Shown piece by piece: positions 5,104-26,046 of a DNA stretch of 32,000 nt. Below the pieces are notes generated by a model, which made no database searches, was not told the origin of the DNA, and saw nothing but the letters and a program-made list of their open reading frames with translations. The DNA is from Bacteroidales bacterium (GTDB lineage Bacteria; Bacteroidota; Bacteroidia; Bacteroidales; UBA12077), in contig JANQHR010000046.1 in assembly GCA_028282585.1 (NCBI GenBank), positions 82,924-114,923 on the forward strand. The letters are read 5' to 3'. Each line of letters starts with the position of its first letter. Position 1 is the stretch's first letter. The translations under genes were made by a program, and so were the position numbers.

Positions 5104-8100
5104 TTAAATAATAATTTCAACTTCCTCATTAACTTCATCGTCTTCTTCAATATTTTGGAGTAATTGAATCAGTTTTGAAATTGTTTTTATGTTAGGGTTT
5201 TCAAAGAAATCTCCAAGTCGGATTTCTATATTGAATTCTTTATATATCATTGAAGTAATTTGAATTGCATTTAAGCTATGTCCTCCAATTTCAAAAAAGT
5301 CGTCGTATATGCCTATTTTATCAAGTGCAAGAACTTCTTCCCAAATTTTAGTTAATTTTTTTTCTACATTGGTTTGTGGTTCGACATAGCTATTACTTTC
5401 AAGCTTAAAGTCTTTTAAATTTGCCAACTGCCTCCTGTCAGCCTTTCCATTTGTATTTAATGGTATTTTATCCAGTTGAATAAAAAAAGTTGGAACCATG
5501 TAAGCTGGTAATTTTTTTGAGATTTCCGATATAATAACACTGGTGTCTATTTTATTTTTATTCGATACAGTATAAGCCACCAGTTTTTTATTTCCCGAGT
5601 TATCATCTATTGCTATTACAACACTTTCTTTAATATCATCCAATTGATTAAGTACCGATTCTATTTCTCCCAGTTCAACTCTAAATCCTCGTATTTTTAT
5701 TTGATCATCTATTCTACCCAAAAATTCTATATCGCCACTTGGAAGCCATCTTGCTATGTCGCCAGTTTTATAAATTCTAACTGCATCCTTAGGGTTATCT
5801 TTTTCAGAATAAATTTTACCACGTTCTTTATTCCATATTATAAATTTATCTTTTGTCAGAGAATTATTCTGATAATACCCTCGTGCTAAACCGACACCAC
5901 CTATATGTAATTCTCCGGGGATACCAACAGGTTGTAATTTGTGGTTATTATTTAAAATAAAAAGATTAATATTATCAATAGGTTTACCGATTGGAATTGT
6001 ATCTACTTTTTCATCCCTGGTGCAATTATAATATGAAACGTCAACTGTCGCCTCGGTAGGACCATAAAGGTTTACTAAATTAACTTTTAAGTTTTTAAAT
6101 AATTCATTAAAAAATAAAACACTATTTGCCGATAAGGCTTCACCACTAGCAAATACCTGTATTAAACTTTTTAGATTGTCTACGTCTACATTATGATCCT
6201 TAATATACTGTAAAAAAACATTTAACATAGAAGGCACAAAATGTATTTTTGTTACTTCTTTTTTAGTTATTGTCTCAATTATTCTATTTGGATCTTTTTC
6301 TTCATTTTTGTCTAATAAAACCAATGATGCCCCATAAAAACTCCACCAAAATAGTTCCCATACTGAAACATCAAAACCTATTGAAGTCTTTTGAATCAAA
6401 ATATCCGTTGGAGAAGCATTATATTTTTTTTGCATCCAGTTAATTCTGTTTATTACAGAATGATGTTCTATCATAACTCCTTTAGGTTTTCCTGTAGAAC
6501 CCGATGTATAAATAACATATGCTATATTGTTGGAGTTAGCCTGATTAAATTCTTTTAATCCAGGTTTTTCATAAGAAAAACTATCTATGAATATCAAATC
6601 TGTACCCGTTTCTTCGAACTTATCCTTTAAATGAATTTTTGTTATAACAAGGTTACATCCACTATCTGATAGCATTATTGATATTCTTTCATCAGGATAA
6701 TCTGGAATAATAGGTAAATAAGCAGCTCCTGACTTTAAGATTCCATAAATACAGATCATCATTTCTATTGATCTATCCATACTAACTCCTACTAGCTTTT
6801 CAGGCCCAATTCCACAATGTCGAAGATATTCTGCTAATTCATTTGCTTTAGCATTTAATTCTTTATATGTTATTCTTTCATCTTTATAGATTAAAGCAAT
6901 CTTATTAGGAGTTTTTAAAACCTGCTCTTCAAATAAATAATGGATACATTTCTCTTTAGGATAATTAACTTTTGTATTGTTGAAATTACCTAAAATCTGA
7001 CCCTTTTCTTCTTTTGTCAATATATCCAGTTCATTTATAATAATATCTTTATTCTCAACTACACTTGTAACTATCTTGTTAAAATGCTTTAATATTCTTT
7101 TAACCGTATCTCTATAAAATAAATCGGTATCGTAAATTATAGAAAGTTTTATTTCATTATTATTATGATGAAATATGAAATCCAAATCAAATGTACTTTT
7201 TATATTATTGCTGCTGTTTTTAAAAGGTTTCAAACTTAAATGATTGCTATTACTTGTTTCATTTTCATAAACAAAATCTCGATCACTATTATATAATACA
7301 ATTACATCAAAAAATGCAGATCCTACCGAATTTCTTTCTGTAGATAATTCCTCAACTAATTTACTAAATGGATATTCCTGGTGATTATATGCTTCTTGAG
7401 TATTATCTCTAACACTATTTAAAAATTGCTCAAAAGTTTTATTTCGATCAACTTTATTTCTTAAAGTCAACATATTTACATAATATCCAATTTGATCTCT
7501 TAAATTATAATTTTGTCTACCTGATACAGGAGTTCCAATTATTATATCATTTTGGTCTGTATATTTATAAAGTAATATTTTCACTAATGAAAGTAGTGTC
7601 ATAAATGGAGTAGAATAATTGCTTTTACTGATATCAAGTAAACTATCCACCTGGTATTTGGATAGAGTCAGGCTTACAAGATCTGCTCCATGTGATTTGC
7701 TTTTTGTCCTACTTTTATCGGTTGGAATATTTAAAGATGGCAGTTTACCTCCAAGTATTTTATGCCAATATTCTTTGTGTTTTCTATAAATATCCGAGTT
7801 TACTATATTATTTTGCCAGGCACTGTAATCTTTATACTGAATTGTTAATGGTTCAACTAGTACTTTTTCATTATTTATTCGAGAATTGTATAGATTTAAT
7901 GCATCTTTACCAAATACATACATTGACCATCCATCGCTTATAATGTGATGCATTGCGTAAACAAAGACATATTTCTTTTCTTCAATCTTAATCAGATAGC
8001 TTCTTAACAAAGGTCCTTTGTATAAATCAAATCTTTTTGTTTTAGCTTCTTTTATTAATTCATTTACTTTCTTTTCTGTAGAAGCTTCTTTACTAAAGTC

Positions 8101-11100
8101 ATATTCCTCTATCTCAAAATCAATAGAAGTTAATACCTTTTGTTTAAATTGTCCATCCTTTTTTGCGAATACCGTTCTAAATGATTCATGTCTGTTAATT
8201 AACATATTAAATACATTTCCAAAAACACCAGCGTCAACTTCTCCTTCCAAGATAAAAGAGTTAGATATTATGTACCCATAATTATTCTTAGATAATTCAT
8301 CAATTAAAAGTAGTTGCTTTTGCGAATATGATACTTCGTAATACTCCTGATGCTGTACTTTCGGAATAACATTTCTATTGTAATTTAACTGATTTGTTGA
8401 ATCAGTTGAATTATCTATTAATTCATTTAGTTTATCGATATCAATTCTATTAAAATCGATGCAATCAATAAGTTTTATTTTATATTCATTACCAGTATAA
8501 GAAGGATCATTATAAAGCATTTTTTGAAGATTCCTAATAAATGGTTCTACTGACAATAAAGAAACAAACTCTTCAGCTTTAATTTTTGCAATACTTGACT
8601 GCTTTTCATAAACTTCTTTGCTATAATATAAATCTTTTAATGCCTTTATCCAAGGTTCTATTTCTTGTTCAGGAACTATTGCTTGTGGTAAAGAATTTTC
8701 GTTAAACTCATTCTTATATTCTTTAATATGATTAATAGGTATCAGGTAATCCGTTTCTAATTTTGCTTCTATTAATCCTCCATGCTGACTAGCTAAAACA
8801 GGAATTCCCCTTAACATAGCATCAGTACAGGCCATACCAAATCCTTCAGCCCATAATGTTGGCATTAATAATATCTTTACATTAGCCAAGAGTTCATTTA
8901 AACTCTCTTTATTTTCCATTATTGTAATGTTAGGCACCTCATTCATCAACCTCATATCTGTTGGCGTAGTACCCCAACCCGGAACAATTGCGAATTTAAT
9001 TTCAGGTAATAATTTTGCTAAAGTCAATAGTATTTTAATTCCTTTTACATCACACGGATTAAACATAAAAACATATTCATTATCAAAGGAAGCTAACTTT
9101 GGAAAAATGTCATTTCCAAAATGAGGCGGATGGTTTACAAAAGTACTGAATCCAGTATGTGTTTTAACATAATTAGAAACATACTCACTAATTGTTACAA
9201 TCTGAGTTGATTTACCTATTAATTCGGTTCGCTTTTTTCCAGGGTAAAGACTTTCAGGCCCGAATGGAAGTAATTGGGGAGTATGAGCTAAATATATTAT
9301 ATTATCGGATCTAACCTCATGAATAGCTTTTAACAGTTGTTGAGATGGATCTTCTGCAGAAATAAATATCCAATCGGGTTGAAATTCTTTAATTATCTTT
9401 TGAAGTTCTACTTTTAAATCATCAGTTTCTAAAATTGCATGTACTTCAACATTCTTTATATTAAAAACATACTTTTTATCATAAACATCAACGGTTATTC
9501 CATCATCTTTTAAGCTTTCCAATAATTCCTGGCTCGTAATATCACTAGGAACAGCTAGTGCAGGTGTAACAACTTTTACATTATGACCAAGTTGTGCAAT
9601 TTCTTCTACCAAATATTTATTTGATTTATTAGCGCCTCCAAATACTCTTGTATAAGGTAGATTCATAGTTAAAATCAAATCAAGTTTAATATTAGGTGCT
9701 ACATCTATCTTCTGTAGAATTTCCTTAATATTTGCAATATCAGATTGCTCTATTTTTCTTCTTAATATCAGTTTCCCAAAATCTTGAATTGTTGTTTTTG
9801 AAAATAGAACTACAAAATCAATATCTGTTGAGAATTCATGATTTATCCTTGATAATAATTTTATTGCTAGTAAACTGTTTCCACCTAAATCAAAAAAGTT
9901 TGAGTTAATACTAATTTCATCAACTTCAATATTTAAAACTTCGGCCCAAATAGATGCTAATTGTTTTTCAGTCTTATTACGAGGAGCAATATAGTTATTG
10001 TTAATACCTGCACGTGGTTCCGGTAATTTTTCTTTATCAACTTTTCCGTTAATTGTCAAAGGTAAATTATCAATAATGACAAAAAATGATGGGATCATGT
10101 ATTCTGGAAGCTTTCTTTTTAAAAACTCCCTAAGAATATCATTCAGCTCTGATATTTTATTATCATGGAGTATAATATATGCGCACAGATATTTTTCACC
10201 AGAGTCACTTAATTTATCCACAACAATTGTATCTTTAATCAAATCATGTTTTAGAAGATTCTTTTCAATCTCACCTAATTCAATACGATACCCTCTTATT
10301 TTTATCTGGTTATCAATCCTTTCAACGAATTCTAAGTTTCCATCTGATTTAAAAAAGGCCTTATCTCCGGTTTTATATAAAATATGGTTATTGGAAGTAT
10401 TAATAAATTTTTCAGATGTAAGTTCAACTCTGTTCAAGTATCCTTCGGCAAGGCAGTTTCCTCCAATATAAATTTCACCTGGGATTTCTTTAGGAATAAC
10501 ATTAAATTTATTATCGAATAAATAAATATTAGAATTTGATATTGGTTTTCCAATAGGAACATTTTCGGCATAGTCATCTTCAATTTTGTATTCATAAATC
10601 ATACATCCAACCGTTGCTTCAGTTGGACCATATTCGTTATATATTTGTACAGATCTCTGAAATGCCTTTGATACAATTCTGCAGTCTTTACTTTTAAGCT
10701 GATCTCCACCAATAATCAGTTTCCTAACATTTGAGTTTTTAAGATTATATTCATCTAATATTTTTAAGTGAGCTGGTGTTAACTTTACGATATTTATATC
10801 CTTATTATCAAATATTCTGCTAAAAGTTTCAGGAATATCTGTCGAATCATAAATAATAATTTTACCACCGGTTAAAAGTGGAACATAAATAGAGGTTTTG
10901 GTTAAGTCAAAGGATATGGATGAATATAATGGAAAATTAAAATTACCATCTATGTTATATATGTCCGAAGCCCAATTTATATAATTAGCAATACTTTCAT
11001 GATTAACAATTACTCCTTTTGGATTTCCAGTTGAACCGGAAGTATAAATTATGTATGCGCTTTTATAATTCTTGTTTGATATATCAAAACTCTGACCATT

Positions 11101-12300
11101 TGAAAATATATTATCATTTTTTATACTAACTATATTATAATCATGATTCCATTCCTCTACATATTTAAGATCTGTTATTAAATTGTTAACATTTCCATCC
11201 TTCATCATAAATTCGATACGTAACTTAGATAAGTTGGTATCAATAGGCATATAGCAAGCACCTGTTTTTAAAACTCCCAGAATGCTTATAATAAGCTCAA
11301 TTGAATTATCTAGCATAATTCCTACTATCGAATTTTCTCCAACACCTTGCATTATTAAATAATTTGCTATAGCATTTGATTTAATATTTAATTCCTTATA
11401 AGATAGCTGTTCTTCATTATATTCAACAGCAGCATTATCTGGAGTTTCCAAACATTGTCTGACAAATAATTCACAAATAGAATTATTTAAGTAATCCTTC
11501 TTAGCAGTATCATTAAATTTATTTACTAACTCTTCTTTTTCTTCCGATGATATTAGTGAGAAAGAATTTATTGGATTTTCTAAGTTACTTATAACAGATT
11601 TGAAAAATCCTTTATAATATTTTACTAAATTTTTTATTAACTCTTCAGAGTAAAGACATGAGTTGTATTTTACTTTTCCTTTAAATATTTTACTTTCTTT
11701 TTCAAATGAAAATGAAAAGAGTATGTTGTAATTAATTTCGTTAAGATATCCTTCTTTTTGAATATTTTCATATAATATACCAATATCAAATAAAGGAAAG
11801 CTTTCATTCTTTTTTAAGTTTAATCCCATCTTTTGAACAAGTGCATCAACTGGGTAATTTTGATTTCTAATAACATTAACTAAATTGTCCTTTGTACTTA
11901 GAATAATATCCTTAAAACTTTTCTCCCCATTCACTTGATTTCTAACACATAAAACAGTGTTAAGAAATTCATCCTCAACCTTTTGTTCATGAATTGATGT
12001 ACCTATACTGATATCCTCAGATTGTACATATTTAGATAAAAACGCACTTATTCCGGCAATTAATAATACCTGAATTTTAAAATCCTGTTCTTTACTGATG
12101 TCAAGTATTTTCAATGTAAGGTCTTCATCAAATTTGAACTTATACTCCTGCTTTTCGATCTCTTTATTTATCAAAGAATCTTTACTATATGGAATTATTG
12201 TTTTCTCTTCAAAACCTTTTAAATAATCCAACCAGTACTTTTCTTCGTTATATCCTATATTGTTCAGATATAATATTTTATCAGTTTTACTATTACCCAT
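5104..12300 (-). CDS. NRPS, two modules with an embedded glycosyltransferase: truncated C - A - T - GT - C - A - T
   Basis: 2398-aa ORF with ATG at 12298-12300 (verified) and stop at 5104-5106. It contains two full A-domain motif sets, two carrier motifs ([16 protein letters not shown]), one HHIISDG, and a GT-B-like block with [22 protein letters not shown]. Confidence 0.92.
   Translation of the reverse strand: [2398 protein letters not shown]
5176..5388 (-). other. Peptidyl carrier (T) domain followed by an acidic C-terminal tail
   Basis: aa ~2305-2375. [13 protein letters not shown]...[14 protein letters not shown], with Ser at aa 2342. The tail, aa 2376-2398, reads ...[19 protein letters not shown]. 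Confidence 0.9.
5431..6969 (-). other. Adenylation domain; hand-extracted code DVWHFSLVDK (Ser)
   Basis: aa ~1778-2290. [101 protein letters not shown]. The code is identical to the Ser code I recall for EntF. Confidence 0.85.
7021..8367 (-). other. Condensation (C) domain
   Basis: aa ~1312-1760. [35 protein letters not shown] (nt 7930-7950, verified), [41 protein letters not shown]. Confidence 0.9.
8521..9693 (-). other. GT-B fold glycosyltransferase domain (GT4/Glycos_transf_1-like) embedded between T and C
   Basis: aa ~870-1260. N-lobe: [39 protein letters not shown]. C-lobe: [24 protein letters not shown]...[39 protein letters not shown]. The EX7E-type motif is present as E1152-x7-D1160 (nt 8821-8847, verified on DNA). 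Confidence 0.75.
9766..9987 (-). other. Peptidyl carrier (T) domain
   Basis: aa ~772-845. [14 protein letters not shown]...[14 protein letters not shown], with Ser at aa 809. Confidence 0.9.
10006..11499 (-). other. Adenylation domain; hand-extracted code DLTKIGEVGK (Asn/Asp-like)
   Basis: aa ~268-765. [85 protein letters not shown]. Confidence 0.88.
11551..12300 (-). other. Truncated condensation domain (C-terminal lobe only, no HHxxxDG)
   Basis: aa 1-250. [10 protein letters not shown] (YWxxxLxG-type motif), [56 protein letters not shown], then the C-A linker [15 protein letters not shown]. The protein starts about 20 aa before the YW motif, so the whole N-lobe including the catalytic His motif is absent. 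Confidence 0.75.
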
Positions 12301-12392: not shown

Positions 12393-13721
12393 TTAAAAAT
12401 TAAATGAAGAATCATTTATATCGGAAATATTTGTAATTACCTCTTTTTTAGTATTATTCTTGATAACCTCCATACCATCTTTATCAAAAGTATTGACACA
12501 AAAAGAAAAATCTTTAAATCTGGTAATCCTGAATGTATTATCATCATGCCTTTCTTCCTCTACTTCATCAGAATAACTTCTTGCTCCAAGAACCTCATTT
12601 AGTACATTCCATCTACGCGCAATTTCTCCATCCTCCACTTTATTACTGAATCCTGTTGAAGTAGCACCATTTACATCGCTGTACCCAAAGTGTTTAACTT
12701 TATTAAAACACTTATCTTTTTTAAAAAATTCGGTTAACTCATTAAAAATTTCAATAGTTTCTCCTGGGAAGCCTACCATAATATCTGCAACCATATGCAT
12801 TTTAGGATTATCAAATTTTATTTCCTGAATTGTATCGTATAACTTGGTTAAGTTAATAGGTCTTCCCATGCGGTCCAGGATGTGCTCATTAACGTGTTGC
12901 AGCCCTATATGCAATTCATTTATCCATCCTTTTTTACATAAATCCTTTATTTCAGTTGAGTACTTCTCTAACCATCTAATATGTAAATAACTAAAATAAA
13001 GATTTGCCAATGGAACAGCATTTTTTATTTCATGAACTAGTTCTATTATTGTTTTGTTGCTATCGATTCCATAGGCAAAAGCATCTTCTCCCATTAAATA
13101 TATTTTATCGTAACCTTTTTCAACTCCGGTTTTTACTTCTTTAATTATATCTTCAACAGGTCTACTGTTTATATATCCTTTTGCTTTATTTATAATGCAG
13201 AATGTACACTCTCTTAGACATCCTTCAGAGATTTTTATATAATATACAGGAATTTTTTCTGGAGGTGTTAGGTTATACTTGTTAAAAACATTGACATATT
13301 TAACATCCTTAAATTCTACTTTCGCTCCAATTATCCTGTCAAGAATTTCCTCTTCATGTATGCCAATAATTTCTCCCCCAAATTGTTCTTTTAGTTTTTC
13401 TGACTGTGTCTTTGGCAAACATGCCATAACAATTATATTCTTTTCAGGAAAATTAACTTCTCTTGCAGCTTCTAGTATTTTAATAAACTTCTCATACATC
13501 AAATCATGGAATCCACAACCGCAAATAATAATTTTATCTACATTTAAATCATCACATACCTTCCACCCGTTAGTTCTAAAATATTTTTCAACCGTAGCAT
13601 AATAAGAAGTGTGTCTTTCGCAATGGACATTATTAGTAACTATAGCTACTCTTTTATCTAATAATAAATTATTCATAATAAGAGTTATTAAATTATTTAA
13701 GGGATTACTGTAAATGTTCAC
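12393..13721 (-). CDS. Radical SAM methylthiotransferase-family protein (RimO/MiaB-like)
   Basis: 442-aa ORF. The GTG at 13719-13721 overlaps the upstream TAG by 1 nt. An alternative ATG at 13674-13676 (MNNLLLDKR...) is at least as plausible. Radical SAM motif: YIKISEGCLRECTFCII (compare E. coli RimO YLKISEGCNHRCTFCII, from memory). The N-terminal UPF0004-like domain has three spaced Cys (NNVHCERH, IICGCGFHD, IVMACLPK; spacing ~35 and ~33 aa). Also MVGFPGETIEIF and ARRWNVLNEV. Confidence 0.75.
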   Translation of the reverse strand: MNIYSNPLNNLITLIMNNLLLDKRVAIVTNNVHCERHTSYYATVEKYFRTNGWKVCDDLNVDKIIICGCGFHDLMYEKFIKILEAAREVNFPEKNIIVMACLPKTQSEKLKEQFGGEIIGIHEEEILDRIIGAKVEFKDVKYVNVFNKYNLTPPEKIPVYYIKISEGCLRECTFCIINKAKGYINSRPVEDIIKEVKTGVEKGYDKIYLMGEDAFAYGIDSNKTIIELVHEIKNAVPLANLYFSYLHIRWLEKYSTEIKDLCKKGWINELHIGLQHVNEHILDRMGRPINLTKLYDTIQEIKFDNPKMHMVADIMVGFPGETIEIFNELTEFFKKDKCFNKVKHFGYSDVNGATSTGFSNKVEDGEIARRWNVLNEVLGARSYSDEVEEERHDDNTFRITRFKDFSFCVNTFDKDGMEVIKNNTKKEVITNISDINDSSFNF

Positions 13722-16700
13722 TAGAAGTTAAATTCTTCTTCGTGGTTTTCAATTAATTCGCTATTTGCCAAAATGTAGTTATTTGTTAAGTTGATTTGGC
13801 TCAATATAATTGAATTATTGTTAATTACTAATTCTATTATTCTTTGAAAATGGTCGGCCATCTGAGAAATAAAATCTTGATTAAATGAATCTGAGGCATA
13901 CCTAAAAAGCATATTTGTTCTGGATGAACTCCCAAAAGCATCTAATGTTAAAAGGTATTTTAAATTTTTATTATGTAGATTTTTTTCTCTTTGGGCGTTA
14001 ATTGTATTATTTATCTGATTTGTCCCCTCATCAATATACTGCATAGTAAAAACAGTATTAATCAAATCAAATTCTGATAATTTACCGGATTTTCTTAAAT
14101 GAAAAATTAACTCGTCATATGGTAAGTCTTGATTTTCAAAGTCTACAATAGTTTCATTTTTTATTTTATTAAGATAGGTTTCATATTCAAGATCAGTATC
14201 TATATAACTTTTTACCGGTAACATATTTATAAAAAAACCTACTATATTATTTAAATTGTTGTCAATTCTACCTGCAACTGGTGTCCCAATAAAAAAGTTT
14301 TCTTGGTTAGTATATTTAAATAATAGAATATTATAGACCGAGAGAAGAAAAGCATATAAGGTTGTATTATTTCCTTTTGTGTATTCTCTAATCTTTTTAT
14401 GTAGATTCTTATCAATTGAGAATAGATAATTTTCAGACTCAGGTTCTTCTAACTTTATTCTGTTAACTGGAAGTTTAAGGATTTCAAAAGGATCCTTAAA
14501 TTTATTCAACCAATAGTTTAATTGTTTATCCAAATTCAAATTATGCTGTGAATTAGCCCATTCAGCGTAATCTTTATATTGTAATTTTAATGGAAATAAC
14601 TCCTTTTTATTATAAAGTGATAAAAAATCTTCAATTAATATATCATTTGAAATTGCATCGGAAATAATATGATGTAAATCAAATAAAAGATAACTTTTTG
14701 ATTCTGTTTGAGCAATACATGCCCTTAACAATGGAGGATCATTTAAGTCAAAAGGTTGTATAAAGTTCTTTATTACCTGATTTAGATTACTCGATTTTTT
14801 AAAGTCTTGATTATTAAGATTTCGCAAGTCAATATATTCAATATCAAAATTAACATCGTCAGTTATTTTTTGAATAAGCTTATCATTATAATAACTAAAA
14901 GAAGTTCGTAAACTCTCATGGCGATTGATTAATTTTAAAAATATATCTTTAATCAAATCCTTATCTAATTCATCTTCAAATGAATAAATTCCAGGCAAGT
15001 TATAACTAGTACTATTTTTATTTAATTGATACAGTAAGAATAATCTTCTCTGTGCAGCAGATAGTTCATAATAATCCTTTTTCTCTGAGGATTTTATAGT
15101 TTCATATTCTAATTTCTTACTTGAATTTACCACTGCAGATAGTTTACTAATATCTTGATTAATAAACACATCAGACAATGTTAATTTAACATTAAACTCT
15201 TCAAAAATTCTTGATATTAAAATTGTAGCTTTCAAAGAATGTCCTCCTAAATCAAAAAAGCTATCATTTATACTTATCTCTTTCTCTTCGATCTGTAATA
15301 TCTCTGACCATATTTTTACCAATTGTAACTCTGTTGTACTGCGTGGTGCAACATAGTCCTTACCAGAGCGAATTTCCGGTTTTGGCAATGACTTACGGTC
15401 TATTTTACCATTACTGGTTAATGGTAAACTCGTTAGTTCTTCAAAATAACCTGGAACCATATAGTCCGGTAATATACCTCCTAAGTAATTCCGTAATTCT
15501 GATTGATCTATTTTTGAACCCGGAACATAATATGCACATAAGTATTTATCACCTTCTTCTTCCCTGCATAATACAACACACTCCGAAATATTTTCATGAC
15601 CCAGAATGACTCGCTCTATTTCTCTCAACTCAATTCTAAAACCTCGAATTTTTACCTGGTAATCGGTTCTACCTAAAAACATCAAATTACCATCTGGTAA
15701 CCAGCGTGCTAAATCTCCTGTCTTGTATAGTTTACCTGTTGATTCAAATGGATGTTCAATAAATTTTTCTGAACTTAATGCTTCATCTTGAAAATAGCCT
15801 CGTGCCAAACCATCTCCTCCAATGCATAATTCGCCTATACAACCCTGGGGAACTAATCCATTACTTTCATCTAATACGTATAGCTGTGTATTTACAATCG
15901 GTTTCCCTATGCTTATTTCTTTTTCTCTTGTTACATTCTTTATGCTTGACCAGATCGTCGTTTCTGTCGGACCATACATATTGAATATCTCTGCATTGGT
16001 TAATTGACGAACATTTTCTAATAGTTGCAAGCTTAACTCTTCGCCACCTAATAATAACGATTTTAGATTACGAAGGGATCGGCCCACTCGATCTGATCCC
16101 AATAGTAGTTGTAAACGTGAGGGGGTTAATTGTAATATGGTTACTCCAAATTCTTCCAATCTTCTCAATATCAAGTCTCCATCCAACTGTTCTTGCTCGT
16201 TACCTAATACTAATCGTGAACCACGTAGCAAGGGAACAAATAGTTCTAAGCCAAATATGTCGAAGCTTATGGTGGTTAAAGAAAATAAGCAGTCTGTGGT
16301 ACTAAATGGAATTTCTTTATTGATTCCATATACAAAATTAACCAAGGATTTATGTTCTATCATTACTCCTTTGGGAGTACCTGTAGAACCTGTGGTATAA
16401 ATAATATAAGCTAAATCTGTTGGGGTTGTGGTATCCGGAAATGATAAAAGTCCTGGATAAGTGTGTATTAATGGATAATTTATGTCTAAAACAGTTAAGT
16501 TATCGGTTAAAACTTTATTCAAACTGTTGTCGCTTAATAAATAGTCTATTCCACTACTTTCAATGATGTTCTTAATTCTTAATTCCGGATAACTGGGATC
16601 TAACGGTAAATAAGAACATCCGGATTTAAGTATGCCAAATATTCCGATTATTAACTCCAGCGAACGGCCCGATAATAATCCGATGGTTTGACCAGGTAAA

Positions 16701-19700
16701 ACTCCCTGGTCACGTAAATAGTTTGCCATCTGATTAGAACGTATTGATAACTCTTTATAAGTTAATAAGCTTTTTCCATATGATATCGCTACATGATCTG
16801 GTGTATCATCTGACCGATCTTCAAATAGCTCATGTATACTCCTTGTTTGAGGATATTCGTATGTTGTCTCATTAAACCTTTCAATTAATTTACTTTTCTC
16901 ATCTGGTAAATTACACTCTATATCATACAATCGTACACTTGAATTATCTATTAAAGTTATCAGTAAATTTCTAAAATGGTTTGTAAACTGATTTATAAAA
17001 TCCTTTCTGAAAATATCTGAACAATATTCAACCGAGATTTCAATTGTATCACTTTCATTACAATATATCGTAATATCATTCTTTGCTGCCTCTTTATTAA
17101 AAATTTTAACTGGTTTAATATCTAGATTATCCGAAAGGTTTTTAAGTTCGCTACTTTCGTCAAAACCCAAATATGAAAATCCAGCTTCAAACACAGGATT
17201 ATGACTTGTGTCTCTTTCAATTTTTAAATCATTAACAAGATCATCAAACTGATAATCCTGGTTTGACATGGCCTCTATGGTTTTATCTTTTATTAAATTG
17301 AAAAAATCCAATAATGTTTGCTTTATATCTATTTGTATTCTGATAGGAAGTATATTAATAAAAATACCTATTAACTCTTCAAAGTCTTTTGATGATCTAC
17401 CGAATATGGTTGATCCAATAATTATATCTTTTTGATTCGTGTATTTATACAAAAGAATGTAATATACTGATAAGAAATATACATAAGAGGTAACACCTAT
17501 ATTCGTGCAAAATTCTTTAATTTTAGTCGTTAAAACCGAATCAAGCTCAACAACAATCAAATCGCTATTAGTACTCTGCAACACCGGTCTACTAAAATCT
17601 ACAGGTAAATTTAAAATCGGTAAATTTCCATTTAAAAGATTTAACCAATACTTTTTTTGAGATTCAAATTCTTCAAGTTTGTTTCTATTTTCCTGCCAAA
17701 TACCGAATTCTTTATATTGAATATTAATTGGCTTAAAACTGGTAGAATTGCTTTGATACGTATCGAATAATTGATTTATAAATAAACGACAAGAATAAGC
17801 ATCAGCAATAATATGATGAATATCGATAAAAAGTAAATGATCATCATCACTTATTTTAAATACTTTAATTCTAAACAAAGGTGCTTTACTTAAATCAAAT
17901 GGTAAAATTGAATTTTCAAAAATATCCTCCAATTCATTATTATCAATTTTAGTAACATTTAATTTATCGAATAATATTTCTTCTGGATCGTGGACAATTT
18001 GCACAGCATCTCCTTTAATAATCTTAAATGATGTTCGTAAAGATTCGTACCTTTTTATTAATAACTCAATTGAACATTGTAATCTTTCAGTATAAAATTC
18101 TCCTTTAATTCTATAGCAGTGAGGTAAATTAAAACTAATAGTACGGTTAGTTAAACTATCTAGTATAAATAGTCTTTTTTGAGCAGAAGAAATAGTATAG
18201 TATTCTTTCTTTTCCGACGGCAGTATATTAATTGAATTTGTTGAATCTGCAATAGAACTTCTGTTTAAGTAATCTGTAAGCTTTTTTACATTTTTATTTT
18301 TAAAGAAATCAGCGATTTTAATGTTGAAATTCAATTTTTCTCTAATGCTATTTATGATTAAAATTGCTTTTACAGAATTACCGCCAAGCTCAAAAAAATC
18401 ATCAAATACTCCTATACCTTCAAACGTTAGATGGTCTTCCCAGATTTTTACTAATTGCTCTTCAATATCGTTATTTGGAGCTACATAGTTTGTACTTAAT
18501 TCTGGTCTTGTTCGTAAATTAAGATTCTTAACACTGCTAGATGAATTAATTAATTTTGATTCAAGCTCTTTATTGTCATCTATTTTTCTCTGTTCTAAAT
18601 CTATTGTTGAAACTATAATTTGGTTGAGATTACATGCTAAGGCCCTACTAAAAATAATTTTACCTTCGCTTGGCTTAATTGCATCCTTTAAATAATAATT
18701 AACTTTCTCACTTTCTTCTTTTATTATTTTTTCAGGAGATACATAATTAATAAAATCACTACTTGTATAATTAGATAGTTCACCTGAATCTGTCGATTTT
18801 ATTTCTGAATTGCTAATATCAAGCAGGTTATAACCTTCCACCTTAAGTATAGTGCCCGAATCGTCTGATAATACAAAATCATAGTTTATAAAATCCTCAT
18901 TCTCACTTTTATTTAAGCGAACTAAACTACAAAAGTTCTTTGTAAGTGGTTTAATAATAGTAATCTTATGATAATAGGCAGGTAAAAAAGCTCCTTTACT
19001 TAGTATTGGAGATAAAGCTACATCTACTAAACCGGGATGCAAAGAATATTCTTTCAAATCTTCTAATGATTCCTCACCTATAATAATATCAGAAAGGCCA
19101 ATATTTTCTCCTACTTTAATTTTCACATTATTATTTCGCCATCTTTTACCAAATCTTAGATATTCGTTTTCATGTAAATTATTTTCAAGTGCTTTAGTTG
19201 GTTTCAATTCCTGATTTTTAAAATAATCTATGTTTTCCTGAATATTTAATTTGGCTTCTAAAATTGAAACCTGACCTTTACAATGTTCTATCCAACTATC
19301 TTCATCTTCGTAATAGCTAAGAATTTTAAAGTCAAGCAAATCTCCTTTTTGGGTAATAATTGTATGGATTTCTTTATTTTCATCCTTTTCAAACACCATA
19401 GCTCTTAAAATATGTAAAGCTCTTATCTCTACAGAATCATTTTTGGGATATAAAAATTGTACGGCAGCATATAACATTTGCAGATATCCGGTACCAGGCA
19501 TTGTTGCTTTATCTAGTATTCTGTGTTCGTTTACTATCCAATCATTTTCAGAATGTATATAGCTAATCAGTATACTTTCATTTTCATTTGAAATATATTT
19601 TCTGAAAAGAAAGTGATCAATTTTCCTTTTAATGAAGCTATTTTCATTAAAAGGATTAGAAAGTTGTTTTAATGTTTTTACCGCACCGCCTACCTCTTGC

Positions 19701-22700
19701 CATGCATCCCAATTAATACTTATATACTTTGTATTTTGAGTATTTTTGTAATATGCAAAAGCATCTAAAAAAGCATTTGCTGCAGTATAATCAATTGTTC
19801 CTACATTTGGGTAAATTGCATTTAATGAAGAAAACAGTAAAACAAAATCTAAATCTAATTTAAGTTCTTCAATTATTCTATTTATTACTAAAGTTCCATA
19901 CAGTTTTGTGGTAAAGACTTCTTCAACTTTTTGTGTTGTTTTAAGTTGAATTAATCCTCCTCCGGGTAAGCCAGCACAATGTATTATTCCATCAATTCTA
20001 CCAAACTTTTTGATTCCATTTCTCACAATATTATTAACACTATTATAATTAGAAATATCTGAATTACATATTATAGTGTCATGCCCAAAGGACTTTATAA
20101 ATTTCAGCTTGTTAATTTTCTCAACTATTTGATCGGAGTTTGGTTTATTTAACAATTTATCCCATTCACTTTCATCAGGAAACTTTGATCTGCTCACTAA
20201 TATTAAATTCGCACTAACATTTTTTGCCAAATATTCAGCAATTTCTAATCCCAATCCACCTAATGCACCTGTAATTAAGTAAGCACCATTCTTTTTCAAG
20301 TATAACTCTTTATCTTTACCTGTATTAATATTTACGCGTTCATAATTTAAAGCAAAACGATGGTTATTTTGATAACTTATAATACGATCCTTAGTGTTAA
20401 TTAAAATCTCATCTAAAATACTATTAATGAGTTGTAACTCTTCTTTTTCTCCTTCAATGTTTTGAGCAATATCAACACTTTTACATCTAAAGTTAGATAA
20501 TTCTAACGGTATTGTTCTAATTGCACCAAGTAATGTTGCCTTTTCCGGATATTGAATCTGGCTACCTGAAATACTTTGCATTTGATCAGTTACAACACAG
20601 AGCTCAACTTTATTAGTTATCGAGTTATTTGCATAAGCTTTAGCAAGAAATAATAAACTATAAAATCCTAGATTTTGAGATCTTTTAACCTTTTCTATTT
20701 CTTTTAAATTGTGTTTTTCATTGGATAAGTTCCATAAATGAACAACCATTTCAGGAATAGTATTCTTATTTTTTAGATATTCAATTAATTTATTTAAATC
20801 CTTTTCGTTTCCAGGTCGAATCTCAGCCTCATTATTTTTGTTTATATTAAACTTATTACCCTCTTTAACAATTATTGTTGACTCATATATCTTATTAAAT
20901 CTATCAATAAGTCTTGAGCAAATTTTTTCATTGTTAGCAAATACTAAACAAACCTTATCTGAATTAACTTCTCCACTATCTGTGTAATTAAGAATTGTGG
21001 GTTTCCATATGGGAAAGTATGTCCAGTTATCAATACCAAGTCTTTCTTTAATATTATCGTTCACTTGCACAAGTTCGGATATATCTCTCTTTTGTAATAT
21101 ATTTTCCGCAAGAGATTCATTTATTTCAAACTTCTTTTTTGAAAATGAATATCCAGGTAATGAAATTCTTCTTCTTTCTTCACCGTGATAATACTTTTGC
21201 CAATTAATCTTTATCCCATTTAACCATAGGTATCCAATACGCGAAACGAGATAAAATACATCGGAATATTCTTGATTTTCCAGTCTAATAGTATTGAATA
21301 TTTTCTTATTTGGCACATTCTTAATAAATTGGTAGGTAATAGTACTTAATGAATTTCCTGGTCCGATTTCACAAAAAACAGGATCCTCTAATTTAGACAA
21401 CTCTTCTAATCCCTTACTAAACTGAACAGTTTTTCTTAACTGCATTACCCAATAATCAACCGAACCGGCATCCTCTATAGTAATCCATTCGCCAGTTACA
21501 TTTGATATATAAGGTATTTGGGGTGTACTTAGAACTTTAGTTTGTAGCTTTTGTTTATATTCGTTCATTATCATTTCCATATCACGAGAATGACCTGCTA
21601 CATTTATCTTAAGTCTTTGACAAATTATTCGATTTTCTTTAAGTAATTTTTCAACAAAAGAAATACTATCCACCGAACCTGAAATAATACAAGATTCTCC
21701 ATGATCAGCCGCTAAAGAAATCTGATCATTTAAATATTCTGAAAGCTTTGAACTTTCTAAAGGAATATTTAACATAACACCTTCAGGAAGTTTAGTCATT
21801 AGGTAACCTCTATAGCTTACTAAATCAAGTGCATCTTCCAGGGTTAAAACACCAGATAAACAGGCAGCTGTGTACTCACCAATACTATGGCCAATCAGAG
21901 CAGAAGGTTTTATATCCCAATCCATTAATAACTTTGCTAACGAATATTCAATTACAAAAGTAATAACCGGTGAAACATCAATATTATCAATAACAGTTTC
22001 ATTCAAAAATTCTTCTGTTGATGGATAAATAATTTCTTTATAATTATAATCAGAAATGGTACTTAGTATCTTGAAACAGTTATCCATTACATTTCTAAAT
22101 TCAGGTTCTGTTTTATAAAGCCCCAGCCCCATATTAATATATTGAGAACCCTGGCCTGAAAACATAAAGACAATAGGAGAATTACTGTTTTGACATATTT
22201 TCTTTATAAATCCCTTTTCCTCTACTTTATTTAATTTGCCCAATGCATCGTCAATATCAGAACAAATAAGGTATGCTCTATGATCAAATTCTTTTCTTCC
22301 AACACTTAAAGTATATGAAATATCTGATAAATTAATGTCACAATTATTTTGTAGAAATTCCGTTAATTTTTTGATATTTTCTTTTAAAGATTCTTCGTTA
22401 TTAGCCGAAACCAGTAATAACTTATACTCCTTTTCTTGTTTGCTATATTTTAATTCAGGCGCTTCCTCTATAATTACATGGGCGTTTGTACCTCCTATTC
22501 CAAATGAGCTAACTCCTGCGCGTAAAGGATATTCATTATTAGTCCATTCCTTCAAATTTCGATTTATATAAAATGGAGAATCCTCTATACCTAAACTGGG
22601 ATTAGGTTCTTCGAAGTTTATACTTGGCGGTATCATTCTATGTTTTAACGAAAGAATTCCTTTAATAAAACTTCCTACTCCCGATGCGGTGCCCATATGG

Positions 22701-23888: not shown

Positions 23889-25034
23889 TTATTTAGTATT
23901 GTAATAATACTTTCTGAGTGCGTAACTGGATATTATGTTTTTTTGTATTTGTGATGTTCCTTCAATTATCTCCAATACCTTAGCTTCTCTAAATAACCTT
24001 TCAACAGGGTATTCTGAATAACATCCATTTCCTCCATGAACTTGTACAGCATCAATAGCAACATTCATTGCAATTTTTGAGGAAAAATATTTTGCAATTG
24101 TAGTTTTTATTACAGCTTCATGACCTTTATTCATTCTATTATTTGCAGCTTCAATACATAAGGCTCTTGCTGCATGGATATTTGTAGTAGCATCAGCAAT
24201 CATTCCCTGAATATGTTGAAAGGTATGTATACCTTTCCCAAATTGATTTCTATTTCTTGAATATTTCACCATTGCATCTAACGCTTCCTGTGCAATAGCA
24301 ACACCCGCCCAAGCAATACTATATCTTCCATTATCAAGCGCAGTATTAACAACAAATGAAAAGCCGCATCCTTCTTTGCTTAACAAATTCTCACGAGGTA
24401 TTTCTACATTTTTAAATTCAATTTCTGATATATGTGAAGCTTTATTAGCTAATAAACCTTTTATTGGCTTAACTTCTATCCCCTCATAATTGCGTTCAAC
24501 AATAAAAGTAGATATTCCTTTTTCTCCTCTTGCTACAACTATGAAGAAATCAGCAATTTCAGCAAAACTTATCCATTTTTTCTTTCCATTTAGAATATAT
24601 CCGGAATTAGAATCTGAATATGAACACTGAATATTTTTTGCATCCGTACCTACATTTGGTTCAGTTAAAGCAAAAGCCCCAATCTTCTCTCCTGTTGACA
24701 TCATTGGTAACCATCTCATCTTTTGTTCAATACTCCCCCATTTTAGCAAAGTTTCAGCAACTAAAGAGGTATTAACAGTTATTAATCCACGCGTATTACA
24801 ACATGCTTTACCAATTTCTTCCGTAAACAATCCATAATGAAGTGAATCTAGCTCAAGGCCACCAAAATCTCTTGGTATACTTGCAGTTAAGTATCCATTT
24901 TTAGCTAAATTAGTAATTAAATCATTTGGCAGTTTTTCCTCGTTTTCAAAAATAGTAGCAAAAGGCCTTATCTTTTTTTGAGCAAATTCTTTTACTTCTT
25001 CAATAACAGTATTTTGATCTATCAAATTATTCAT
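23889..25034 (-). CDS. Acyl-CoA/acyl-ACP dehydrogenase family flavoprotein (FkbI-like)
   Basis: The ORF track gives 389 aa from a TTG at 25056-25058. I prefer the ATG at 25032-25034 (MNNLIDQ...), preceded by AAAGAGG. ACAD-like motifs: GAFALTEPNVGTDA, WISFA, VQVHGGNGC, EAKVLEIIEGTSQIQKNII. Confidence 0.85.
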   Translation of the reverse strand: MNNLIDQNTVIEEVKEFAQKKIRPFATIFENEEKLPNDLITNLAKNGYLTASIPRDFGGLELDSLHYGLFTEEIGKACCNTRGLITVNTSLVAETLLKWGSIEQKMRWLPMMSTGEKIGAFALTEPNVGTDAKNIQCSYSDSNSGYILNGKKKWISFAEIADFFIVVARGEKGISTFIVERNYEGIEVKPIKGLLANKASHISEIEFKNVEIPRENLLSKEGCGFSFVVNTALDNGRYSIAWAGVAIAQEALDAMVKYSRNRNQFGKGIHTFQHIQGMIADATTNIHAARALCIEAANNRMNKGHEAVIKTTIAKYFSSKIAMNVAIDAVQVHGGNGCYSEYPVERLFREAKVLEIIEGTSQIQKNIISSYALRKYYYNTK

Positions 25035-25045
25035 TGCCTCTTTAG

Positions 25046-26034: not shown

Positions 26035-26046
26035 AATTTTAAAAAT

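What the first reader, a model, noticed from the sequence alone, without database searches (positions are those of the whole stretch)
12393..13721. RimO/MiaB-like methylthiotransferase gene wedged between NRPS genes that carry Asx-like modules
The 442-aa protein has the radical SAM motif in a context nearly identical to RimO as I recall it (KISEGC-x-x-x-CTFCII). It also has all three N-terminal Cys residues of the auxiliary-cluster (UPF0004) domain at MTTase-like spacing, which argues for a genuine methylthiotransferase. RimO methylthiolates the beta-carbon of an Asp residue in ribosomal protein S12. Both downstream NRPS genes carry A domains with Asp/Asn-like codes (DLTKIGEVGK, DLTKVGEVGK). 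One testable hypothesis is beta-methylthiolation of a carrier-bound or peptide Asx residue. The C-terminal ~60 aa do not look like a clear TRAM domain to me.
Basis: partly seen in the sequence, partly recalled or inferred. Interest (0 to 1): 0.7.

Follow-up and report, generated by a model that had tools for sequence, protein, structure and literature searches.

The report
NRPS-docked methylthiotransferase-like radical SAM enzyme
A gene between two peptide-assembly-line genes encodes a relative of the enzymes that add a methylthio group to tRNA and ribosomal protein S12; it has swapped their substrate-binding domain for a docking tail shared with the assembly line, so it probably modifies an asparagine building block in an undescribed way.

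Summary
It has the CxxxCxxC radical SAM motif and three N-terminal Cys that are invariant across 50 homologues. The predicted structure (pLDDT 89.6) matches MtaB, MiaB and RimO and has no TRAM domain.

It is not a housekeeping RimO or MiaB. It falls below every NCBIfam cutoff and belongs to a separate clade (99/100 bootstrap) of at least 110 metagenomic protein clusters. Every one of the 17 contexts I examined was an NRPS, PKS or carrier-protein context.

In all seven loci of its subclade, the next gene starts with a half condensation domain, then an Asn-type A domain (DLTKIGEVGK), then a T domain, while upstream modules vary. One of the seven was a blind prediction test.

New here: TRAM is replaced by a 30-aa disordered tail ending FxF-COOH. 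The upstream synthetase, and stand-alone B12 radical SAM enzymes in related loci, carry the same kind of tail, which looks like a portable docking element.

The most likely function is trans-acting Cβ-methylthiolation of T-bound Asn. The chemistry is inferred, not shown. I found no published precedent.

The parts
12393..13676 (-). MTTase-like radical SAM gene (427 aa from ATG 13676, stop at 12393-12395). The alternative GTG start at 13721 would give 442 aa.
   Evidence: The 427-aa form equals database protein P0001. Homologue N-termini align to the ATG start.
13332..13652 (-). N-terminal UPF0004-like domain. The three auxiliary-cluster Cys are C19 (13620-13622), C54 (13515-13517) and C86 (13419-13421).
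   Evidence: Pfam UPF0004 26.3 bits. The Cys are invariant in 50 homologues. The fold matches the MtaB/MiaB/RimO N-domain.
12579..13247 (-). Radical SAM core. It includes CLRECTFC (13197-13220), LQHVN (12888-12902) and GFPGE (12759-12773).
   Evidence: Pfam Radical_SAM 75 bits. Aligns to T. maritima RimO 4jc0. Coordinates.
12486..12509 (-). Family-specific FSFCVNTF motif (consensus F-C-K-D-T-F) that closes the folded part, at the point where canonical MTTases begin their TRAM domain.
   Evidence: Near-invariant C393. Motif positions across 110 homologues.
12396..12485 (-). 30-aa disordered C-terminal tail ending ...INDSSFNF-COOH. Proposed docking element that replaces TRAM.
   Evidence: pLDDT below 50 for residues 401-418, and block means 41-49 for 401-427. 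A 30-aa tail ending FxF occurs in about 65 of 110 homologues. The tail is shared with upstream synthetases.
13724..15094 (-). Complete terminal condensation domain of the upstream PKS-NRPS. Its last 22 aa (13724-13789) end ...ENHEEEFNF-COOH.
   Evidence: Pfam Condensation 2-448 of 456. Normal C-domain motifs (SAAQRRLF, RHESLRTSF, HHIISDA), so it is not an epimerization domain. Tail.
11521..12300 (-). Half condensation domain (C-terminal lobe only, no HHxxxDG) at the N-terminus of the downstream NRPS. Proposed receptor or adaptor.
   Evidence: Pfam Condensation positions 193-456 only. The same holds in L004, L006, L095 and L098. N-termini are conserved across 14 such subunits.
10021..11469 (-). 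First A domain of the downstream NRPS, specificity code DLTKIGEVGK (Asn-type). Proposed to load the substrate.
   Evidence: The same code lies directly downstream of the homologue in L004, L006, L093, L095, L098 and L105.
9751..9978 (-). First T (carrier) domain of the downstream NRPS (GGNSL, Ser 809). Proposed to present the Asn thioester.
   Evidence: Pfam PP-binding 780-844. Motif.

Best explanation
The gene encodes a two-cluster radical SAM enzyme of the methylthiotransferase (MiaB/RimO/MtaB) superfamily that has become a dedicated, trans-acting tailoring subunit of a nonribosomal peptide assembly line.

It has lost the TRAM domain that canonical members use to hold tRNA or protein S12. 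In its place is a 30-aa flexible tail ending FxF-COOH, of the same type as the tail on the upstream synthetase.

Proposed mechanism:
1. The tail docks the enzyme onto the next synthetase. That synthetase begins with a catalytically dead half condensation domain, followed by an Asn-specific A domain and a T domain.
2. The enzyme acts on the Asn thioester held on that T domain.
3. Reductive cleavage of SAM gives a 5'-deoxyadenosyl radical, which abstracts a C-beta hydrogen.
4. A methylthio group assembled on the auxiliary [4Fe-4S] cluster is transferred, as RimO does at C-beta of Asp in S12. The product is beta-methylthio-Asn.
5. The complete C domain at the end of the upstream synthetase then joins this residue to the Gly-terminated chain.

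Shown: homology, Cys conservation, fold, absence of TRAM, clade separation, synteny, co-variation with A-domain code, shared tails.
Inferred: docking partner, substrate, timing, and the methylthio chemistry.

My confidence by step: about 0.75-0.8 that it is an assembly-line tailoring enzyme tied to the downstream module, and about 0.4 that the reaction is C-beta methylthiolation of Asn.
For: - **MTTase relative.** NCBIfam best hits are TIGR00089 (185 bits) and RimO (169 bits). The best PDB sequence hit is RimO 4jc0 at E = 2e-30. The AlphaFold model has pLDDT 89.6, and the top Foldseek hits are MtaB 9a6d, MiaB 7mjw and RimO 4jc0 with TM about 0.68-0.70.
- **Both clusters retained.** The three auxiliary Cys and the CxxxCxxC motif are invariant in 50 homologues. 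QH and GFPGE are also conserved.
- **Not housekeeping.** There is a sharp score gap between the family (E <= 1e-68) and canonical RimO (E about 1e-33). The family is monophyletic in 99 of 100 NJ bootstraps. All 17 contexts examined involve NRPS, PKS or carrier proteins.
- **Substrate link.** The Asn-adjacent members form one subclade. Seven of seven have half-C, then A(DLTKIGEVGK), then T directly downstream. These are the window, L004, L006, L093, L095, L098 and L105, the last being a blind prediction test. Their upstream A codes differ: Gly, Thr, and the unassigned DAESIGTVCK, DVRCMALLAK, DIFHLGMTFK.
- **Docking.** The tail is always 30 aa after FCKDTF and ends [DE]xGDFxF in about 65 of 110 members. 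The upstream synthetase ends with a homologous 22-aa tail. Ungapped BLOSUM62 scores are 28-58 in six loci, against a control mean of -17 and a control maximum of 21. Stand-alone B12 radical SAM enzymes placed before half-C subunits carry the same tails (L006, L093, L106). A stand-alone radical SAM enzyme in L095 shares its neighbour's tail and is 56% identical over 521 aa to the unit embedded inside the window's NRPS-C A domain. This indicates that tailed stand-alone enzymes and in-module enzymes are interchangeable. In L106 there is no upstream NRPS at all, yet both radical SAM enzymes carry the DFNF tail.
- **Chemical analogy** (established knowledge): RimO methylthiolates C-beta of Asp. Asn C-beta is the closest analogue.
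Against: - No experiment and no known metabolite support it. Literature searches found no beta-methylthio-Asn natural product.
- Scores fall below the curated cutoffs of every MTTase model, so the catalytic outcome may have diverged.
- In the window itself the tail similarity to the upstream synthetase is weak. It is limited to the terminal xFNF, with a score of 14, inside the control range.
- Other subclades precede Thr, Gln-like, Ser or unassigned modules (L091, L011, L010, L099, L100). Tail-less members sit in small A/PCP/ACAD loci (L007, L101, L102). Neither substrate nor chemistry is uniform across the family.
- Half-C subunits also follow ordinary synthetases with no radical SAM gene between them (L093, third subunit; L011, third subunit). 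The half-C domain is therefore a general subunit junction, not a dedicated recruiter.
- The seven Asn loci may share ancestry as a mobile cassette, so they are not fully independent.
- The near-invariant extra Cys (C247, C393) are unexplained. They could alter how the auxiliary cluster behaves.
Confidence: 0.45

Rival explanations
1. Same recruitment and same substrate, but different chemistry. The MTTase fold would be used for something other than methylthio transfer. Examples: sulfur insertion giving a free beta-thiol for later cyclisation or glycosylation, C-methylation, desaturation, epimerisation or cross-linking of the T-bound residue.
For: - Scores are below all curated MTTase cutoffs, and the branch separating the family is long.
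- There are family-specific invariant residues (N15, W235, H232) and extra near-invariant Cys C247 and C393.
- Partner modules differ between subclades: Asn, Thr, Gln-like.
- A GT4 glycosyltransferase domain lies right after the T domain in the window and could use a new nucleophile.
Against: - All three auxiliary Cys and the SAM-binding motifs shared with RimO and MiaB are conserved.
- To my knowledge, every characterised enzyme with the UPF0004 plus radical SAM architecture is a methylthiotransferase.
- The same clusters already contain separate B12 radical SAM enzymes that would cover C-methylation.
Confidence: 0.3
2. The enzyme acts elsewhere in the pathway. The target could be the upstream T-bound polyketide-Gly chain, the peptidyl chain after condensation further along the line, or the released product. 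Gene position would then reflect only co-expression.
For: - The gene sits between two synthetases, so the upstream chain is equally near.
- The B12 radical SAM enzyme DscE of discodermin biosynthesis was assayed on isolated, free discodermins (PMC12858407).
Against: - Upstream module specificity varies within the subclade while the downstream Asn module is constant.
- In L106 there is no upstream synthetase.
- A docking-type tail argues for on-line action.
Confidence: 0.12
3. It modifies a protein or RNA rather than a metabolite. It could be a self-resistance enzyme that modifies the ribosome (S12 or rRNA/tRNA), or an enzyme that post-translationally modifies an Asp/Asn residue of the synthetase itself.
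For: - RimO is a protein-modifying enzyme and is the closest characterised relative.
- Gene clusters often carry target-modifying resistance genes (established knowledge).
Against: - The TRAM domain used for macromolecule binding is lost.
- The tail is shared with synthetase subunits.
- The enzyme subclade co-varies with the adjacent A-domain code.
- Tail-less relatives sit next to stand-alone A and PCP genes.
Confidence: 0.06
4. It is the organism's ordinary housekeeping RimO or MiaB, and lies next to NRPS genes by chance.
For: JGI's automatic annotation calls many homologues 'ribosomal protein S12 methylthiotransferase'.
Against: - RimO scores 169 bits against a cutoff of 357, and MiaB 115 against 355.
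- No TRAM domain.
- A separate clade with 99/100 bootstrap support.
- Consistent NRPS/PKS synteny across phyla.
- One Aminicenantes genome carries two copies.
Confidence: 0.02

Closest known systems
RimO (ribosomal protein S12 Asp88 beta-methylthiotransferase; TIGR01125; PDB 4jc0)
   Same: It shares the N-terminal three-Cys auxiliary-cluster domain and the radical SAM core. The CxxxCxxC context is nearly identical, and the QH and GFPGET motifs are present. RimO is the best sequence match among characterised proteins. Its target chemistry, C-beta of an Asx residue, is analogous to what is proposed here.
   Different: Only about 24-26% identical. It scores 169 bits against an equivalog cutoff of 357. 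There is no TRAM domain. It lies outside the RimO clade. It is encoded inside NRPS clusters, and its presumed substrate is a carrier-bound amino acid rather than a ribosomal protein.
MiaB / MtaB tRNA methylthiotransferases (PDB 7mjv-7mjz, 9a6d)
   Same: Same overall fold. These are the top Foldseek hits, with TM about 0.68-0.70 over about 380-410 columns.
   Different: Only 21-23% identity in the structural alignments. The RNA-binding TRAM domain is absent. The genomic context has nothing to do with tRNA.
Trans-acting tailoring of T-bound Asn/Asp in aerobic NRPS pathways, for example the beta-hydroxylation and O-methylation that give the beta-methoxy-Asn linker of cystobactamids (PMC7966384, abstract seen)
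   Same: The logic is the same: an Asn on an assembly-line carrier is functionalised at C-beta by a separate enzyme before incorporation. Beta-SMe would be the sulfur counterpart of beta-OMe.
   Different: Those systems use O2-dependent hydroxylases plus a methyltransferase. Here a single oxygen-independent radical SAM enzyme is proposed. The family's named sources are MAGs of Aminicenantes, Omnitrophota, Bacillota/Clostridia and one Odinarchaeota.
NRPS docking systems: COM, PAX and beta-hairpin docking domains with C-terminal short linear motifs (review PMC9113145). Also X and interface domains, which are C-domain derivatives that recruit P450s or hydroxylases (my own knowledge).
   Same: A short disordered C-terminal peptide appears to mediate subunit pairing, and a degenerate C-type domain sits at the place where a trans enzyme must act.
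   Different: The junction here is a complete C domain plus FxF-COOH tail, followed by a half C domain and an A domain. The 2021 review lists junctions at E/C or PCP/C only. The same tail is carried by tailoring enzymes of two different radical SAM families.
B12-dependent radical SAM C-methyltransferases associated with NRPS (DscE of discodermin biosynthesis; PMC12858407)
   Same: It is a radical SAM tailoring enzyme paired with an NRPS, which that paper calls 'an unusual enzyme combination'. Such enzymes co-occur with the MTTase-like gene in these clusters.
   Different: It belongs to a different radical SAM family (cobalamin-dependent, no auxiliary sulfur-donor cluster). DscE was assayed on isolated free peptide. 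The enzymes here carry docking tails or are embedded in A domains.

Membership tests
Radical SAM superfamily | CxxxCxxC motif within a partial TIM-barrel core (PF04055) | tested here: met
   CLRECTFC is present. Pfam PF04055 scores 75.4 bits against a cutoff of 29.5. The motif is invariant in 50 homologues.
MiaB/RimO methylthiotransferase family (TIGR00089) | N-terminal UPF0004 domain with three conserved Cys for the auxiliary [4Fe-4S] cluster | tested here: met
   C19, C54 and C86 are invariant. PF00919 scores 26.3 bits, just under its gathering score of 27. The predicted fold superposes on MtaB, MiaB and RimO, N-domain included. Cluster binding itself was not tested.
MiaB/RimO methylthiotransferase family (TIGR00089) | C-terminal TRAM domain (PF01938/PF18693) | tested here: not met
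   No TRAM hit in Pfam or NCBIfam, and the alignments stop at about residue 378 of 442. The model shows only one helix and then a disordered tail. Canonical RimO hits in the same search do carry PF01938/PF18693.
MiaB/RimO methylthiotransferase family (TIGR00089) | Score above NCBIfam's curated cutoff | tested here: not met
   185.2 bits against a cutoff of 251.
RimO equivalog (TIGR01125) | Score above the cutoff and placement in the RimO clade | tested here: not met
   169.2 bits against a cutoff of 356.95. In the NJ tree the family is separate from E. coli RimO and RimO-like hits, and is monophyletic in 99 of 100 bootstraps.
MiaB, MtaB and archaeal/eukaryotic-type MtaB equivalogs | Score above the cutoffs | tested here: not met
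   MtaB 146 vs 357, MiaB 115 vs 355, MiaB-like-B 111 vs 315.
Methylthiotransferases (functional definition) | Transfers SCH3 to an unactivated carbon using two SAM molecules | not testable with these tools
   This needs anaerobic in vitro reconstitution or metabolite analysis.
Assembly-line trans-acting tailoring enzymes | Conserved co-location with, and co-variation with, a specific carrier-protein module | tested here: met
   All seven subclade members precede half-C, A(DLTKIGEVGK), T, while upstream modules vary. Tail-less relatives lie next to stand-alone A and PCP genes.
Assembly-line trans-acting tailoring enzymes | Physical docking to the synthetase | tested here: inconclusive
   The FxF-COOH tail is shared with upstream synthetases and with B12 radical SAM enzymes, but the receptor is only inferred. 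In the window itself the similarity is limited to the terminal FNF.

The most novel reading that the evidence does not exclude
This would be the first methylthiotransferase-type enzyme working on a carrier-protein-bound amino acid in natural-product biosynthesis, producing beta-methylthio-Asn, a residue unknown in peptides. It would also be one member of a previously unrecognised plug-in system. In that system, radical SAM enzymes of unrelated families (MTTase-like and B12-dependent) are recruited to NRPS subunit junctions by a portable FxF-COOH tail that copies the upstream synthetase's own docking tail and targets a half condensation domain.
Probability: 0.35. Interest if true: 0.85.

Novelty: new variant of a known kind. 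Interest (0 to 1): 0.72.

Why it matters
To my knowledge, methylthiotransferases are known only from tRNA and ribosomal protein S12 modification. A clade dedicated to NRPS and PKS pathways would extend this chemistry to small-molecule biosynthesis and predict a new sulfur-bearing amino acid in peptides from uncultivated bacteria.

It would be an oxygen-independent counterpart to the hydroxylase-based beta-functionalisation of Asn and Asp in aerobic pathways.

The shared docking tail gives a directly testable rule for how trans enzymes find their module. It could be used to graft radical SAM tailoring onto engineered assembly lines, and to improve genome-mining rules, since these genes are currently auto-annotated as RimO.

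Tried and rejected
- **Genome scan.** A family-alignment scan of species-representative genomes was swamped by canonical MiaB, MtaB and RimO.
- **Metagenome scan.** A scan with a family-specific N-terminal alignment returned only 7 loci.
- **First tree script.** It timed out. I redid it with numpy distances. My secondary 'family plus RimO grouped' bootstrap count is poorly defined on an unrooted tree, and I do not rely on it.
- **Automated Stachelhaus extraction.** It mis-read position 331 as C instead of G. I corrected this by hand.
- **Fusion search.** I looked for fusions of the MTTase-like domain to NRPS domains. The only longer proteins are tandem multi-radical-SAM fusions (P0142, P0143, P0189) with no NRPS domains.
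- **Epimerization domain idea.** I tested whether the upstream terminal 'C' is really an epimerization domain, which would make the junction an ordinary E/C COM junction. It is not; it has normal C1-C3 motifs.
- **Dedicated recruiter idea.** The half-C domain also follows ordinary synthetases, so it is not a recruiter specific to this enzyme.
- **Promoter and terminator scan.** Uninformative: 14 promoter-like sites against 11.6 expected, and no terminators. This is consistent with one operon.
- **Literature.** I found no description of an MTTase-type enzyme in NRPS or PKS pathways, and no beta-methylthio-Asn or -Asp outside S12. The library holds only open-access papers and preprints, so absence is not proof.
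Full report
**Observation**

The window is about 29% G+C, and every long ORF is on the minus strand. The reported interval 12393-13721 holds a 442-codon ORF on the minus strand; the plus-strand reading is full of stops.

Its product contains KISEGCLRECTFCIINKAKG. It also has Cys at positions 34, 69 and 101 counted from the GTG, which are 19, 54 and 86 counted from the internal ATG at 13676.

The ATG is the more likely start. It gives the 427-aa protein found in the public collection (P0001, 99% identical), it matches the N-termini of all homologues, and it leaves a 45-nt gap after the upstream stop, as in related loci. The GTG overlaps the upstream stop by one base and cannot be excluded.

**What the protein is**

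- Pfam finds Radical_SAM (75 bits) and UPF0004 (26.3 bits, just under its cutoff of 27), and no TRAM domain.
- NCBIfam ranks the MiaB/RimO family model first (185 bits against a cutoff of 251). RimO follows (169 vs 357), then MtaB (146 vs 357) and MiaB (115 vs 355). All are well below their cutoffs, and the alignments end near residue 378.
- The best solved relative by sequence is T. maritima RimO (4jc0, E = 2e-30).
- An AlphaFold model built on 50 homologues is confident (pLDDT 89.6, pTM 0.87). It superposes on MtaB, MiaB and RimO with TM about 0.68-0.70.
- After the radical SAM core the model has one helix, a conserved F-C-K-D-T-F motif (FSFCVNTF in the window) and a roughly 30-residue tail of low confidence (block means 41-49). 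There is no beta-barrel.

**A distinct family**

A search of 5.8 billion proteins returned about 110 clusters at 36-61% identity, 390-445 aa long, with E from 1e-68 to 1e-159. Scores then drop abruptly to canonical TRAM-bearing RimO at E about 1e-33.

In 50 aligned members, the three N-terminal Cys and the CxxxCxxC motif are invariant. Two further Cys (C247, and C393 in the FCKDTF motif) are present in at least 90%.

I built an NJ tree with E. coli RimO and MiaB, RimO-like hits, and MiaB/MtaB-like proteins from genomes. The family is monophyletic in 99 of 100 bootstraps and sits on a long branch.

An exhaustive profile search of 1.84 billion representatives found only about 24 representatives at the 50% identity level scoring above 380 bits, so the family is small.

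Named sources are MAGs of Aminicenantes, Omnitrophota, Bacillota/Clostridia and one Odinarchaeota. One 9.1-Mb Aminicenantes genome has two copies.

**Genomic context in the window**

Reading 5' to 3' on the minus strand:

| Coordinates | Gene or domain order |
|---|---|
| 28031 to beyond 32000 | NRPS module whose A domain is interrupted by a radical SAM plus B12-binding unit |
| 23889-28014 | Methoxymalonyl-ACP-type cassette: 3-hydroxyacyl-CoA dehydrogenase, FkbH-like HAD, 81-aa ACP-like ORF, methyltransferase, acyl-CoA dehydrogenase |
| 13721-23767 | PKS-NRPS: KS-AT-KR-DH-ACP-C-A(Gly)-T-C |
| 12393-13676 | The MTTase-like gene |
| 5104-12300 | NRPS-B: half-C, A(DLTKIGEVGK), T, GT4 glycosyltransferase domain, C, A(Ser), T |
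| 1-4947 | NRPS-C: TubC-type docking domain, C, A(DLTKVGEVGK, interrupted by radical SAM plus B12), T |

No terminator-like site flanks the gene.

**Context of homologues**

Seventeen distinct contexts were examined, counting the window and not counting duplicate copies of the same region.

- Members of about 430 aa lie between NRPS genes (L004, L006, L091, L093, L095, L098, L099, L100, L105, L106), as does the 407-aa L011 member. L010 is a trans-AT PKS-NRPS.
- Short members of about 400 aa lie beside a stand-alone adenylating enzyme, a carrier protein, an acyl-CoA dehydrogenase and glyoxalase or MBOAT genes (L007, L101, L102).
- The common denominator is a carrier-protein pathway. None is a ribosomal or tRNA context.

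**The junction**

In the NRPS-embedded loci the upstream synthetase ends with a complete condensation domain. In the window this covers Pfam positions 2-448, with normal C motifs SAAQRRLF, RHESLRTSF and HHIISDA, so it is not an epimerization domain.

The protein after the MTTase-like gene starts with only the C-terminal lobe of a condensation domain (Pfam positions about 190-456, no HHxxxDG). An A domain and a T domain follow.

**Link to asparagine**

Within the family tree, the enzymes that precede an Asn-type A domain form one subclade. Seven of seven have half-C, then A(DLTKIGEVGK), then T directly downstream: the window, L004, L006, L093, L095, L098 and L105.

I fetched L105 afterwards as a test of this prediction, and read its code by hand.

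The module upstream differs among these loci: Gly, Thr, and the unassigned codes DAESIGTVCK, DVRCMALLAK and DIFHLGMTFK. What follows the first downstream module also differs. The conserved unit is therefore [enzyme][half-C-A(Asn)-T].

Other subclades precede Thr (L091, which has two tandem copies), Gln-like (L011), or A domains that are themselves interrupted by radical SAM plus B12 units (L099, L100, L106).

Enzyme subclade tracking the downstream A-domain code, and not the upstream one, is the main evidence that the downstream carrier-bound amino acid is the substrate. The caveat is that the seven loci may share descent as a mobile cassette.

**The tail (new here)**

In about 65 of 110 family members the FCKDTF motif is followed by a tail of exactly 30 residues ending [DE]xGDFxF-COOH. 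The short members end right after the motif.

In each NRPS-embedded locus the upstream synthetase ends with a homologous tail:

| Locus | Upstream synthetase C-terminus | MTTase-like C-terminus |
|---|---|---|
| L004 | ...ISHQLVTAETNPLQTEQGDFGF | ...ISQDFIMAETGIIERDEGDFGF |
| Window | ...ENHEEEFNF | ...INDSSFNF |

- Ungapped scores over the last 22 residues are 28-58 in six loci. Unrelated C-termini from the same loci give a mean of -17 and a maximum of 21.
- The window's own pair scores only 14, with the similarity confined to the terminal FNF. L100 scores -5.
- Stand-alone B12-type radical SAM enzymes that precede half-C subunits carry the same tails (L006, L093, L106).
- In L095, a stand-alone radical SAM enzyme shares a different tail (...DLEDE) with the synthetase before it. 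It is also 56% identical over 521 residues to the unit embedded inside the window's NRPS-C A domain. The same catalytic unit therefore exists either built into a module or free with a subunit-type tail.
- In L106 there is no upstream synthetase at all. Even so, both the MTTase-like enzyme and a B12 radical SAM enzyme end in DFNF before one half-C subunit.

I read the tail as a portable docking element that replaced the TRAM substrate-binding domain. The half-C domain is the obvious candidate receptor, but this is inference. It also occurs after ordinary synthetases (L093, L011), so it is a general junction type.

The 2021 review of docking domains lists COM, PAX and beta-hairpin classes at E/C or PCP/C junctions (PMC9113145). 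A complete-C to half-C junction is not among them.

**Mechanism proposed**

The enzyme docks by its tail to NRPS-B. It abstracts a C-beta hydrogen from Asn-S-T through the 5'-deoxyadenosyl radical and transfers a methylthio group built on the auxiliary cluster, as RimO does on Asp C-beta. The upstream complete C domain then condenses the modified residue.

- Shown: homology, cluster ligands, fold, TRAM loss, clade separation, synteny, co-variation, shared tails.
- Inferred: docking partner, substrate, timing, chemistry.
- I put about 0.75-0.8 on 'assembly-line tailoring enzyme tied to the downstream module' and about 0.4 on 'C-beta methylthiolation of Asn'.

**Rivals**

- The strongest rival keeps the recruitment and substrate but changes the chemistry: thiol insertion only, or another radical reaction. 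Divergence below all curated cutoffs, the extra conserved Cys and the non-Asn partners in other subclades leave room for this.
- Action on the upstream chain or the free product is less likely, because upstream modules vary and L106 has none.
- A resistance or protein-modifying role is unlikely given TRAM loss and the synthetase-type tail.
- A housekeeping role is effectively excluded.

**Comparison with what is known**

The protein works like a RimO-type enzyme but fails membership of RimO, MiaB and MtaB. It also fails the curated cutoff of the umbrella family, and it lacks the TRAM domain.

Nine literature searches found no MTTase-type enzyme in NRPS or PKS biosynthesis, and no beta-methylthio-Asn or -Asp outside protein S12. 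A 2025 paper still calls NRPS plus radical SAM methyltransferase 'an unusual enzyme combination' (PMC12858407). The searchable library is limited to open-access papers and preprints.

**Verdict**

The finding is real and not ordinary. It is a new functional variant of a known enzyme superfamily, with a specific and testable substrate, and a docking hypothesis that extends to a second radical SAM family in the same clusters.

Noticed in passing
window 1-4947 (-), residues 640-1156 = nt 1480-3030: The Asn-type A domain (DLTKVGEVGK) of NRPS-C is interrupted by a radical SAM plus B12-binding unit of about 520 aa, with weak class-B-like hits (BchE, PhpK, KedN5). The unit is 56% identical to a stand-alone 575-aa enzyme in L095 (7509-9233). 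It may be a module-embedded C-methyltransferase. I found no description of A domains interrupted by radical SAM units.
   Followed up: partly
window 28031-32000 (-), runs off the window end: This is a second module with the same radical SAM plus B12 interruption; the reading frame enters the window at TTRGCPYKCLYC. It also has an extra Cys-rich insert of about 400 aa before motif A10, with only a faint QueC/PP-loop hit (E = 0.03). The A code DPFTFGTIN- is unassigned. A homologous module in L100 lies directly after an MTTase-like gene.
   Followed up: partly
window ~8701-9663 (-), NRPS-B residues ~880-1200: A GT4-family glycosyltransferase domain is embedded in the synthetase between the first T domain and the next C domain. 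It lies immediately after the module proposed to carry the modified Asn.
   Followed up: no
window 23889-28014 (-): This is a five-gene cassette typical of methoxymalonyl- or hydroxymalonyl-ACP extender-unit supply. It comprises a 3-hydroxyacyl-CoA dehydrogenase (27100-28014), an FkbH-like HAD protein (26047-27081), an 81-aa ACP-like ORF (25789-26034), a SAM methyltransferase (25046-25747) and an acyl-CoA dehydrogenase (23889-25058).
   Followed up: partly
window 11521-12300 (-); also L004, L006, L091, L093, L095, L098, L099, L100, L105, L106, L011: NRPS subunits begin with only the C-terminal lobe of a condensation domain. Each is preceded by a protein ending in a complete C domain and/or an FxF-COOH tail. 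This subunit junction is not among the docking classes listed in the 2021 review I consulted.
   Followed up: partly
window 5104-5140 and 4792-4941 (-): The next junction in the same cluster uses a different docking type. NRPS-B ends in an acidic tail (...EEDDEVNEEVEIII), and NRPS-C starts with a TubC-type N-terminal docking domain (PF18563).
   Followed up: no
L091 2946-5581; L106 6001-9093: Some loci stack two tailed radical SAM genes before one half-C subunit. L091 has two tandem MTTase-like paralogues. L106 has an MTTase-like gene plus a B12 radical SAM gene, both ending DFNF.
   Followed up: partly
L007, L101, L102: Tail-less family members of about 400 aa sit in small loci. These contain a stand-alone adenylating enzyme, a carrier protein and an acyl-CoA dehydrogenase, plus glyoxalase or MBOAT genes and unannotated proteins of about 460 and 596 aa. 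This is a separate, unexplained carrier-protein pathway.
   Followed up: no
proteins P0142, P0143, P0189: These proteins of 1000-1900 aa are made of two to four tandem radical SAM units, including MTTase-like and B12-binding ones. They score just below the family. Their function is unknown, and they contain no NRPS domains.
   Followed up: partly
window 12927-12944 and 12486-12509 (-): Two extra Cys are conserved in at least 90% of the family but absent from a few members: C247 in DLCKKG and C393 in the FCKDTF-type motif. Their role is unexplained. They could be a fourth cluster ligand, a sulfur relay or an H-atom donor.
   Followed up: no
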